IMG/VR virus record: IMGVR_UViG_2974623408_000001
Coordinates: 32,001 to 96,000 of that record
DNA length: 64,000 nucleotides
Strand: one strand, 5' to 3'
From: a virus
Taxonomy: Duplodnaviria > Caudoviricetes
In this document: piece by piece, positions 52,631 to 53,159 of the stretch
Layout: each line of letters starts with the position of its first letter
How positions within the stretch are numbered: the stretch's first letter is position 1
Position numbers and translations under genes: made by a program
The notes under the pieces: model-generated
What the model saw: the letters and a program-made list of their open reading frames with translations, nothing else
Told to the model about the DNA's origin: nothing
The model's database searches: none

Positions 52631-53159
52631 TGGTGGAGCCGAGGGGAATTGAACCCCTGTCCAAATGCTTGATCTTCATGCTTTCTACGTGCGTATCTGG
52701 TTTTAATACAACCCACCGGGTACGTGCAGGCGTGTACCTCACGGGCACATCTTAAGACCTACATACACCAGCAAACCGGTCGGGAGGTTGTGCATTGAGT
52801 TTCACACCCCGGTCAATGCACTAACACCAAGGTAAATCCAATCTAATGCTAGCCTTAGTTAATCCAGGATACATCGAGCGCTAGCTACCTTATATCCAGG
52901 TCCTTATCAGACTAGTGCAGCCTCGTTGGCGTAAGCCTCGATCTCTGCGATGTCTGAATCGGAAACTACAACATCAGCTTCTGCGTTTGTTGTTTAGTTG
53001 CATACGCTTTAGACCAATTGTCTGCTAGGAGTCGAACCTAACTTTTCCTGCATAAGGAACTGCTAACCATAGCTGCAGACTTGGTCACCGTGGTATCATC
53101 AACCATCACACGGGCACGCTTACAAGAGTCACTTACAGATGTCGAAACCTGTCGGCCCC
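52631..53159 (-). ncRNA. ssrA: tmRNA (529 nt), predicted tag (A)AEADVVVSDSDIAEIEAYANEAALV
   Basis: 5' GGGGCCGA..GGTTTCGAC; 3' GACAGGGGTTCAATTCCCCTCGGCTCCACCA; G3.U70; tag frame 52984-52910 then TGA TAA. Confidence 0.92.

What the first reader, a model, noticed from the sequence alone, without database searches (positions are those of the whole stretch)
53012..53086. Mini-tRNA cloverleaf inserted inside the phage tmRNA
Seen: the tmRNA is 529 nt (bacterial tmRNAs are typically about 350-400). Between the pk1-like stem (TGGT..ACCA) and the tag frame lies GACCAA GTCTG CA [GCTA TGGT TAGC] A G [TTCC TTATGCA GGAA] AAG [TTAGG TTCGACT CCTAG] CAGAC AA TTGGTC. That is an acceptor-like helix, a minimal GG-containing D arm, a 7-nt anticodon-like loop and a canonical T arm. 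Inference: a second tRNA-like domain just upstream of the resume codon, possibly a processing site that splits the tmRNA, a nuclease decoy or a ribosome-contacting module.
Basis: partly seen in the sequence, partly recalled or inferred. Interest (0 to 1): 0.8.

Follow-up and report, generated by a model that had tools for sequence, protein, structure and literature searches.

The report
tRNA-shaped insert inside phage tmRNA
A Gordonia phage's ribosome-rescue RNA (tmRNA) carries a real 77-base insertion that folds like a small tRNA, in a spot where no related tmRNA has anything. This is an undescribed variant of a well-known RNA, but only two near-identical phages have it and what it does is unknown.

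Summary
The minus strand of 52631-53159 is a 529-nt tmRNA (Rfam RF00023, 90.3 bits).

Six other actinophage tmRNAs (397-422 nt: Sixama, Boopy, GMA2, Phabba, Wildcat, Kumao) have nothing at this site. The segment is a clean 77-nt insertion. Only this phage and Gordonia phage Phendrix carry it; both belong to Godonkavirus.

The insert lies inside pseudoknot 1 (loop 3, directly after the P3 3' strand), not between pk1 and the tag. Pk1 stays fully paired around it, with five compensatory pairs across relatives. The tag frame, the G3.U70 pair and the T arm are intact.

The insert is tRNA-like: tRNA arm order, a canonical T arm, a UGGU D loop. It is not a tRNA: 16.8 bits, a 5-bp acceptor, no free ends.

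My best reading (about 0.5) is a tRNA-derived module kept as a self-folding side arm of a working one-piece tmRNA. Rivals are excision by tRNA-processing enzymes giving a two-piece tmRNA (0.2), an adaptive docking or decoy module (0.2), and a disabling insertion (0.07).

There is no covariation or expression evidence for the insert. The scan noted this stretch once more in an overlapping window, and never on other DNA.

The parts
52631..53159 (-). tmRNA gene, 529 nt, one-piece standard gene order; ends in an encoded ACCA 1 nt before tRNA-Arg(acg)
   Evidence: Rfam RF00023, 90.3 bits, model positions 1-374. ARAGORN does not call it, with or without the insert.
53011..53087 (-). 77-nt lineage-specific insertion (tmRNA positions 73-149; the boundaries are ambiguous by 1-3 nt)
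   Evidence: Absent from Sixama, Boopy, GMA2, Phabba, Wildcat and Kumao tmRNAs; present in Phendrix with one change.
53081..53086 (-). outer closing helix, 5' strand (GACCAA)
   Evidence: MFE fold. In Phendrix the closing G-C pair is G-U.
53012..53017 (-). outer closing helix, 3' strand (UUGGUC); the bulged AA lies at 53018-53019
53076..53080 (-). acceptor-like stem, 5' strand (GUCUG), 5 bp
53020..53024 (-). acceptor-like stem, 3' strand (CAGAC)
53062..53073 (-). D-like arm: 4-bp stem with a UGGU loop (extends to 6 bp with one A.A mismatch, as in tRNA-Sec)
53045..53059 (-). middle (anticodon-like) arm: 4 bp with a 7-nt loop UUAUGCA, or 5 bp with a 5-nt loop in the MFE fold
   Evidence: read from the sequence
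53025..53041 (-). T-like arm: 5-bp stem with loop UUCGACU and the equivalent of the G53-C61 pair
   Evidence: BLAST matches only the T arms of unrelated phage tRNAs
53109..53113 (-). pk1 P3, 5' strand (CCGUG)
   Evidence: 5 of 5 sequences paired, 1 compensatory pair
53088..53092 (-). pk1 P3, 3' strand (CACGG); the insert begins directly after it
53093..53104 (-). pk1 P4, 5' strand (GGUUG aug AUAC)
   Evidence: 9 pairs, all paired in 5 sequences, 4 compensatory
52996..53005 (-). pk1 P4, 3' strand (GUAU g CAACU), downstream of the insert
   Evidence: the MFE of the 146-nt context also pairs it across the insert
52904..52984 (-). tag reading frame: resume codon GCA at 52984-52982, 25 codons ending ...AALV, then UGA UAA
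   Evidence: Translation. It matches the annotated tags of BlueNGold and Mareelih. The only change against Phendrix is synonymous, CUA to CUC.
53236..53310 (-). tRNA-Asn(gtt), upstream neighbour in the same array
52555..52629 (-). tRNA-Arg(acg), immediately downstream

Best explanation
The segment is a genus-specific (Godonkavirus) 77-nt insertion of tRNA-derived or tRNA-mimicking sequence into the phage tmRNA gene. It sits in loop 3 of pseudoknot 1, directly after the P3 3' strand. That is the hinge where helix 2 enters pk1, 27 nt before the resume codon.

The insert closes on itself with an 11-bp bulged stem, so its two ends meet. It therefore folds as an independent L-shaped or cloverleaf side arm without disturbing pk1, helix 2, the tag frame or the alanine-accepting tRNA-like domain.

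I infer that it remains in a mature one-piece tmRNA that works in the ordinary way with host AlaRS, EF-Tu and SmpB, since the phage encodes no SmpB. I infer that it is tolerated rather than required. It cannot decode or be charged. If it has any effect, the likeliest route is its T-loop/D-loop elbow, which could be read by factors that recognise tRNA corners.

Shown: the insertion, its position, its predicted fold, its tRNA-likeness, and the integrity of the rest of the tmRNA. Inferred: retention in the mature RNA, tolerance, and origin by recombination within the 30-gene tRNA array.
For: The insertion is clean against five Gordonia-phage relatives (Phendrix carries it; Sixama, Boopy and GMA2 do not) and three mycobacteriophage tmRNAs.

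Pk1 P3 and P4 are 100% paired in 5 sequences with 5 compensatory pairs, and slid controls pair at 30-42%.

The tag frame is intact, and its only difference from Phendrix is synonymous. G3.U70, the T arm and the ACCA end can be read in the Rfam alignment.

The cloverleaf fold is autonomous and stable alone and in context.

It is tRNA-like but below every tRNA threshold (ARAGORN finds nothing).

Its resemblance to resident tRNAs is only at the level at which unrelated tRNAs resemble each other. The best is tRNA-Asn with score 12, against shuffles of 7.2 +/- 1.6 and a tRNA-tRNA mean of 8.5.

It is single-copy in its own genome.

The neighbouring tRNA-Asn is a replaced allele with a 13-nt stem-loop insertion between otherwise identical flanks, so recombination and small structured insertions do occur in this array.

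Literature: pk1 can be replaced by hairpins or single-stranded RNA and still support tagging (PMC4236655; PMC13692277 citing Tanner et al.), so this position tolerates change.

The phage encodes no SmpB.
Against: Pk1 is pulled between the ribosomal subunits and rests on the tip of 23S helix 38 after translocation (PMC8363625; simulations in PMC13692277). A tRNA-sized side arm at the helix 2/pk1 hinge could therefore be costly if retained, which favours either excision or a specific role.

Conservation cannot separate selection from recency. The insert has 1 difference in 77, but the adjacent spacers have 0 in 76 and 1 in 73.

Only two near-identical copies exist, so the cloverleaf has no covariation support (helices 4-7 never vary).

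The same phage carries other anticodon-less tRNA-like RNAs in this array, which hints that such modules may be used rather than accidental.
Confidence: 0.5

Rival explanations
1. Processing signal. Host RNase P and a 3' tRNA-processing nuclease recognise the cloverleaf and cut it out. This turns a non-permuted gene into a two-piece tmRNA. The halves would stay together through the acceptor stem, helix 2, pk1 P4 and the 6-bp outer helix, and the bulky module would be gone before the RNA enters the ribosome.
For: The T arm is canonical, the D loop contains GG, and the arm order is that of a tRNA.

The outer GACCAA/UUGGUC helix and P4 would hold the pieces together after excision.

The gene lies in a tRNA array whose members must be released by RNase P; the tmRNA 3' end is 1 nt from the next tRNA.

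Precedents: permuted tmRNA precursors are cut by tRNA-processing enzymes into two pieces (PMC11915505). The embedded tRNA-like domain of M. smegmatis YrlA is cleaved by RNase P and receives CCA in vivo (PMC4201824).

Pk1 has to pass between the subunits (PMC8363625), so removing the module would relieve a steric problem.
Against: The acceptor-like stem is 5 bp, not 7. The same paper attributes the lack of RNase P cleavage of Salmonella and Deinococcus Y RNAs to the absence of a 7-bp acceptor stem (PMC4201824).

The 5' strand runs on without a break into a further 6-bp helix, so there is no single-stranded leader at the expected cut site.

There is no RCCA after the stem.

Known two-piece tmRNAs are broken after the tag region, not in pk1.
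Confidence: 0.2
2. Adaptive module kept in the mature tmRNA. In one version the tRNA-like elbow gives pk1 an extra docking surface on the ribosome, for example on the A-site finger (helix 38) where pk1 already rests. In another it binds or diverts a tRNA-recognising protein: a modification enzyme, a host tRNA-targeting nuclease, or a phage protein that binds the phage's other tRNA mimics.
For: Pk1 contacts helix 38, and this contact is proposed to anchor the message for loading (PMC8363625, PMC13692277).

From general knowledge of ribosome structure, helix 38 contacts the elbow of A-site tRNA.

The same phage has further anticodon-less tRNA-like RNAs in the array: T arm, hairpin and D arm modules at about 49500-49700, and a two-T-arm RNA at 48182-48295.

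The insert is as conserved as the most conserved part of the tmRNA.
Against: No partner has been identified.

Conservation equals that of neighbouring spacers.

Close relatives function without the insert.

The D arm is minimal, and U8, A14 and the Levitt pair are missing, so a true elbow is not assured.

There is no sequence similarity to the Ro-flanking regions of relatives.
Confidence: 0.2
3. Disabling insertion. The tmRNA of this genus is decaying, or has become a non-tagging competitor of host tmRNA, like the tag-less tmRNA of mycobacteriophage DS6A.
For: At 529 nt it is an outlier and ARAGORN fails on it. It has further expansions of about 38 and 12 nt in the pk2-pk4 region compared with relatives. 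A phage tmRNA form that inhibits host tmRNA is known (PMC11915505).
Against: Every functional element is intact: G3.U70, the T arm, helix 2, pk1 with compensatory changes, the resume codon, and a 25-codon frame ending in the family's ...AALV with a double stop. The only change in the tag against Phendrix is synonymous.
Confidence: 0.07

Closest known systems
Standard one-piece tmRNA (Rfam RF00023), specifically the tmRNAs of Gordonia phages Sixama, Boopy/Forza/BlueNGold/Mareelih and GMA2
   Same: Same position in the tRNA array: after tRNA-Asn throughout, and before tRNA-Arg(acg) in Sixama and Boopy. [quoted passage not shown] Same A-rich pre-resume stretch, and the same tag family ending ...AALV.
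   Different: Those tmRNAs are 404-422 nt with a 5-6-nt pk1 loop 3. This one has 77 extra nt there that fold as a cloverleaf.
Two-piece (circularly permuted) tmRNA of alpha- and beta-proteobacteria and cyanobacteria (RF01849-51, RF04321)
   Same: A tmRNA whose precursor holds a segment absent from the working core and is handled by tRNA-processing enzymes. One permuted gene with a whole tRNA-Ala in its intervening sequence has been reported as unique (PMC11915505).
   Different: Here the gene order is standard, not permuted. The extra segment is in pk1, not between the two pieces. Excision has not been shown.
Intron-form tmRNA genes (group I intron in the T loop)
   Same: A tmRNA gene interrupted by a structured insertion.
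   Different: Those introns sit at four subsites of the T loop and the smallest intron-form gene is 545 bp (PMC11915505). This insert is 77 nt, lies in pk1, and gives no group I or ribozyme hit at E<=10.
YrlA-type bacterial and phage Y RNAs (tRNA-like domain embedded in a larger RNA)
   Same: A T arm and a D arm with GG embedded in a longer non-coding RNA in Actinobacteria and their phages. The M. smegmatis form is an RNase P substrate (PMC4201824).
   Different: YrlA modules are permuted: the ends enter through the anticodon-stem position. They partner with Ro60. This insert has natural tRNA order, the genome has no TROVE/Ro gene, and there is no YrlA hit or similarity.
tRNA-Sec (RF01852)
   Same: This is the best Rfam match. 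The D arm can be drawn as a 6-bp stem with a UGGU tetraloop like tRNA-Sec, followed by a canonical T loop.
   Different: Only 16.8 bits against a gathering score of 47. The acceptor stem is 5 bp, there are no linker bases, no long variable arm and no UCA anticodon.
MALAT1 mascRNA (a tRNA-like element inside a long transcript, used as an RNase P/Z processing signal)
   Same: A tRNA-like cloverleaf embedded in a longer functional RNA, with leader-trailer pairing next to it (PMC8457004, title and abstract only).
   Different: It is a eukaryotic nuclear RNA. This is an analogy of principle only.

Membership tests
tmRNA (RF00023, standard form) | Covariance-model score above the gathering threshold over the full model | tested here: met
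   90.3 bits against 47, model positions 1-374
tmRNA (RF00023, standard form) | Alanine identity (G3.U70), T arm and 3' CCA | tested here: met
   5' GGGGCCG pairs with CGGCUCC followed by ACCA; T arm GGGGUUCAAUUCCCC
tmRNA (RF00023, standard form) | Tag reading frame with a resume codon after an A-rich stretch, ending in a stop | tested here: met
   GCA resume codon, 25 codons, UGA UAA. The tag is homologous to annotated tags of related phages.
tmRNA (RF00023, standard form) | Pseudoknot 1 between helix 2 and the tag | tested here: met
   P3 and P4 have 14 pairs, 100% paired in 5 sequences, with 5 compensatory pairs
tRNA (RF00005 / RF01852) | Covariance-model score above gathering, or a call by ARAGORN | tested here: not met
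   Best score is 16.8 bits (tRNA-Sec, gathering 47). No RF00005 hit is reported. ARAGORN finds 0 genes.
tRNA (RF00005 / RF01852) | 7-bp acceptor stem with free 5' and 3' ends | tested here: not met
   5 bp, then an AA bulge and a further 6-bp helix that continues into the tmRNA
tRNA (RF00005 / RF01852) | Canonical T arm (G53-C61, loop UUCRANY) and G18 G19 in the D loop | tested here: met
   Stem UUAGG/CCUAG, loop UUCGACU, D loop UGGU
tRNA (RF00005 / RF01852) | 7-nt anticodon loop with U33 and a purine at position 37; core U8-A14 and 15-48 pairs; 4-5-nt variable region | tested here: not met
   Loop UUAUGCA has U33 but C at position 37. Position 8 is C. The 4-nt D loop has no A14 or R15. The variable region is 2-3 nt (read).
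Permuted two-piece tmRNA | Acceptor (3') piece encoded upstream of the coding (5') piece | tested here: not met
   The Rfam alignment is colinear from 1 to 374
Permuted two-piece tmRNA | Mature RNA in two base-paired pieces | not testable with these tools
Group I intron-form tmRNA | Group I intron (P1-P9 core) in the T loop | tested here: not met
   The insert is 77 nt and lies in pk1. There is no Intron_gpI or ribozyme match at E<=10. The T loop is uninterrupted.
YrlA / Y RNA | Permuted tRNA-like module, a Ro60-binding stem, and an adjacent Ro60 (TROVE) gene | tested here: not met
   Natural arm order. No TROVE match in the 122.6-kb genome. No Rfam Y RNA hit.

The most novel reading that the evidence does not exclude
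The cloverleaf is an internal processing cassette. Host RNase P and a 3' tRNase excise it from a normally ordered precursor, creating a two-piece tmRNA held together by helix 2, pk1 P4 and the 6-bp outer helix. That would be a second, independent evolutionary route to split tmRNA, without gene permutation, and the first with the break in pk1.
Probability: 0.17. Interest if true: 0.8.

Novelty: new variant of a known kind. Interest (0 to 1): 0.5.

Why it matters
A 2025 census of 97,179 tmRNA sequences recognises three gene forms: standard, group I intron in the T loop, and permuted. It singles out one tRNA inside a permuted gene's spacer as unique (PMC11915505). A tRNA-shaped domain inside pk1 of a standard gene fits none of these.

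Pk1 is the element that passes between the ribosomal subunits and docks on helix 38 to help load the tag message (PMC8363625, PMC13692277). A natural tmRNA carrying a tRNA-sized arm exactly there is therefore a ready-made test of how much bulk that passage tolerates. It also tests whether tRNA-like modules can act as processing signals in bacteria.

There is also a practical point. The tmRNA is unannotated in Phendrix, Sixama and GMA2, and ARAGORN misses it in this phage (not run on the others), so phage annotation pipelines overlook these genes.

The limits are narrow distribution (one genus, two genomes about 95% identical) and no functional evidence.

Tried and rejected
- **Recent copy of a resident tRNA:** rejected. 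The best alignment (tRNA-Asn) is no better than unrelated tRNAs align to each other.
- **Repeated or mobile element:** rejected. It is single-copy in its own genome. In 50,697 phage records only Phendrix matches beyond a generic T arm.
- **More distant copies, for covariation:** none found. The loop-anchored pattern gave 0 hits in viral, metagenome and genome contigs. The family anchor pattern gave 0 hits in viral and metagenome contigs. A 17-nt helix-2 pattern gave 14 viral loci, none of them a tmRNA.
- **Looser D-arm plus T-loop pattern:** it gave 17 loci, none inside a tmRNA.
- **Derivation from a Y RNA lost together with Ro:** not supported. There is no similarity to the Ro-flanking intergenic regions of Sixama or GMA2, and the arm order differs.
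- **Group I intron or self-cleaving ribozyme:** no Rfam match at E<=10.
- **Internal promoter splitting the gene:** none found. The only sigma-70-like site lies upstream of tRNA-Asn.
- **Protein-coding reading:** only chance ORFs of 27-46 aa overlap the region.
- **ARAGORN's miss caused by the insert:** rejected. It also misses the gene with the insert removed in silico.
- **Purifying selection on the insert:** cannot be shown, because the neighbouring spacers are equally conserved.
- **The tmRNA database paper's supplements held as text:** they do not mention Phendrix or Gordonia phages.

Full report
**What the window is.** The window lies in a 122,563-bp viral record with direct terminal repeats. 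Its closest public relative is Gordonia phage Phendrix, genus Godonkavirus: 97.5% identity over the tmRNA and 94.5% over the adjacent 6.7 kb. That genus holds only the GodonK and Phendrix species. The minus strand of 43.8-53.3 kb carries 30 tRNA genes. Between tRNA-Asn(gtt) and tRNA-Arg(acg), Rfam calls a complete tmRNA at 52631-53159(-), 529 nt, 90.3 bits. ARAGORN does not call it, and the homologous stretch is unannotated in Phendrix.

- Alone, it folds into a three-arm cloverleaf closed by an 11-bp stem with an AA bulge (-25.7 kcal/mol, z = -3.2).
- The same fold is the MFE of a 146-nt context, where the flanking pk1 strands pair across it.
- Of 5000 shuffles, 30 give any cloverleaf and none is as stable. 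The T-arm motif alone is expected 6e-5 times by chance.
- The only Rfam match is tRNA-Sec at 16.8 bits. E is 0.35 over 4227 families, or about 8e-5 for that family alone.

The structure is therefore real on paper and clearly tRNA-like. It is not a tRNA:

- The acceptor-like stem is 5 bp and continues into a further 6-bp helix with no free ends.
- Position 8 is C.
- The D loop has 4 nt.
- Position 37 is C.
- The variable region is 2-3 nt.

**What relatives show.** Sixama and GMA2 carry unannotated tmRNAs of 422 and 412 nt at the corresponding place in their tRNA arrays. Boopy, Forza, BlueNGold and Mareelih carry annotated ones of about 404 nt, with tags such as EEANAPVVTEADFAEIEAFANSEAAALV. Mycobacteriophages Phabba, Wildcat and Kumao have tmRNAs of 397-416 nt. 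In alignments, all of them lack the segment. The window and Phendrix have a clean 77-nt insertion between the CACGG of pk1 and the conserved UAAAGCG that follows.

The pairs that define pk1 are P3 CCGUG/CACGG and P4 GGUUG-aug-AUAC with GUAU-g-CAACU. All 14 pairs form in all five Gordonia-phage sequences. Five pairs change on both sides, while slid controls pair at only 30-42%. It is in loop 3 of pk1, at the base of P3, next to where helix 2 enters the pseudoknot. This last point follows from H-type pseudoknot topology and is an inference.

It does not.

**Is the tmRNA still a working gene?** Everything that can be read says yes:

- G3.U70, the T arm and the encoded ACCA are present.
- Helix 2 is intact.
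- Pk1 has compensatory changes.
- The A-rich stretch and the GCA resume codon are present.
- The tag is 25 codons, AEADVVVSDSDIAEIEAYANEAALV, followed by two stops.
- The only tag difference from Phendrix is synonymous, CUA to CUC.

The phage has no SmpB gene, so the tmRNA would use the host's.

**Where the insert came from.**

- It is single-copy in its genome.
- Among 50,697 phage records it is found only in Phendrix; other hits match just the generic T arm of tRNAs.
- It resembles resident tRNAs no more than unrelated tRNAs resemble each other.
- It has no similarity to the regions around the Ro-like gene that Sixama and GMA2 carry next to their tmRNA. The window genome has no such gene.
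- Pattern scans of viral, metagenome and genome collections found no further copy.
- Between the window and Phendrix the insert has one change, a G-C to G-U in the closing pair. The neighbouring spacers are just as conserved, at 0 in 76 and 1 in 73. Conservation therefore says nothing about selection, and the cloverleaf helices have no covariation.
- The tRNA-Asn just upstream is a different allele in Phendrix. It has compensatory changes in three stems and a 13-nt extra stem-loop, between identical flanks. Recombination and small structured insertions evidently happen in this array.

**How it most likely works.** The closing stem brings the ends of the insert together, so pk1 can form around it. 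Published work shows that pk1 can be replaced by hairpins or single-stranded RNA and still support tagging (PMC4236655; PMC13692277 citing Tanner et al.). My best reading (0.5) is a tRNA-derived module captured in the tRNA array and kept as a self-folding side arm of a one-piece, functional tmRNA.

The main argument against a purely passive arm is geometry. [quoted passage not shown] That contact is proposed to anchor the message for loading (PMC13692277). A tRNA-sized arm at this hinge is either a burden, removed, or used. That gives two rivals:

- **Excision by RNase P and a 3' tRNase into a two-piece tmRNA (0.2).** This has precedents in permuted tmRNAs (PMC11915505) and in M. smegmatis YrlA (PMC4201824). 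It is weakened by the 5-bp acceptor stem and the paired leader, features that the YrlA paper links to lack of cleavage.
- **An adaptive docking or decoy role through the tRNA-like elbow (0.2).** The presence of other anticodon-less tRNA-like RNAs in the same array fits this. I read and folded two of them after earlier scan notes pointed to them.

A disabling insertion (0.07) fits poorly with the intact functional elements.

**Comparison with what is known.** The RNA is a member of the standard tmRNA family; all defining features tested were met. The insert is not a member of tRNA, tRNA-Sec, YrlA, group I intron or permuted-tmRNA classes, because defining features were tested and not met. The 2025 tmRNA census lists only the standard, intron and permuted gene forms. 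It calls a tRNA inside a permuted gene's spacer unique (PMC11915505). I found no description of a tRNA-like domain inside pk1. I class this as a new variant of a known kind. Interest is moderate (0.5): the anatomy is unusual and sits at a mechanistically sensitive spot, but it occurs in one phage genus and has no functional or covariation support.

**What could not be done.** RNA-level evidence was unavailable. The decisive experiments are northern blot or RACE from infected cells, RNase P cleavage in vitro, probing, and tagging or fitness assays with and without positions 73-149.

Noticed in passing
L001:1501-2029; L005:8886-9307(-); L006:9288-9699(-): Complete tmRNA genes (Rfam 88-95 bits) are unannotated in the GenBank records of Phendrix, Sixama and GMA2. 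In GMA2 a 'hypothetical protein' CDS (Orf58) lies inside the tmRNA and is probably a false gene call.
   Followed up: partly
L006:8922-8978 (-): A Pistol self-cleaving ribozyme match (RF02679, 56.8 bits against a gathering score of 34.5) sits in the tRNA array of Gordonia phage GMA2, immediately downstream of tRNA-Trp (4 nt from its 3' end).
   Followed up: no
window 53236-53310 (-) vs L001:1337-1424: The tRNA-Asn upstream of the tmRNA is a different allele in Phendrix. It has compensatory changes in the acceptor, anticodon and T stems, and a 13-nt extra stem-loop in the variable region. The flanking spacers are identical, which looks like a replaced cassette.
   Followed up: partly
L005:9685-11316; L006:9834-11468; whole own genome: In Sixama an annotated Ro-like RNA-binding protein gene (about 544 aa), and in GMA2 an unnamed ORF of matching size and position (Orf59; not tested for TROVE), lie just upstream of the tRNA-Asn/tmRNA region. 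The window's genome has no TROVE match, and five small ORFs occupy that position. The 396-nt gap upstream of the Sixama gene is strongly structured (z = -4.2) but gave no Rfam Y RNA hit.
   Followed up: partly
L026:2238-2297 (+): An unrelated viral contig (IMGVR_UViG_3300023292_000011) has a 59-nt mini-cloverleaf without linker bases. It has an 8-bp closing stem, the same GCUA-UGGU-UAGC D arm, a middle arm of 5 bp with a 5-nt loop, and a canonical T arm. It lies in the 84-nt gap between two small same-strand ORFs, just before a ribosome-binding site. It may be a tRNA-like punctuation or stability element in an mRNA.
   Followed up: partly
L038: about 6020-6095 (-): A Candidatus Peribacteria MAG carries a tRNA-like RNA with G3.U70 and a ...CUCCACCA end (alanine/tmRNA-type acceptor). 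It has the same mini D arm and no anticodon-type loop. Neither ARAGORN nor Rfam gathering thresholds call it.
   Followed up: no
window 48182-48295 (-) and 49440-49700 (-): Other anticodon-less tRNA-like RNAs lie in the same array. One is a 114-nt RNA with one closing stem and two T-type arms. The other is a stretch with two permuted modules in the order T arm, hairpin, D arm (YrlA-like order). Earlier scan notes flagged both.
   Followed up: partly
window 52631-52904 (-): Apart from the pk1 insert, this tmRNA has further expansions of about 38 nt and 12 nt in the pk2-pk4 region relative to Sixama and GMA2 (alignment A2, columns 335-372 and 452-463).
   Followed up: no
window 53049-53054 and 52999-53004 (-): The hexamer UAUGCA occurs both in the loop of the insert's middle arm and in the 3' strand of pk1 P4. 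The loop could therefore in principle compete for the P4 5' strand. This may be chance.
   Followed up: no
window 52629-52631 and 53343-53371 (-): The tmRNA's encoded CCA ends 1 nt before the 5' end of tRNA-Arg(acg). The only sigma-70-like promoter match in the region (TTGACA-17-TATGTT) lies upstream of tRNA-Asn. This suggests co-transcription of tRNA-Asn, the tmRNA and the downstream tRNAs.
   Followed up: no
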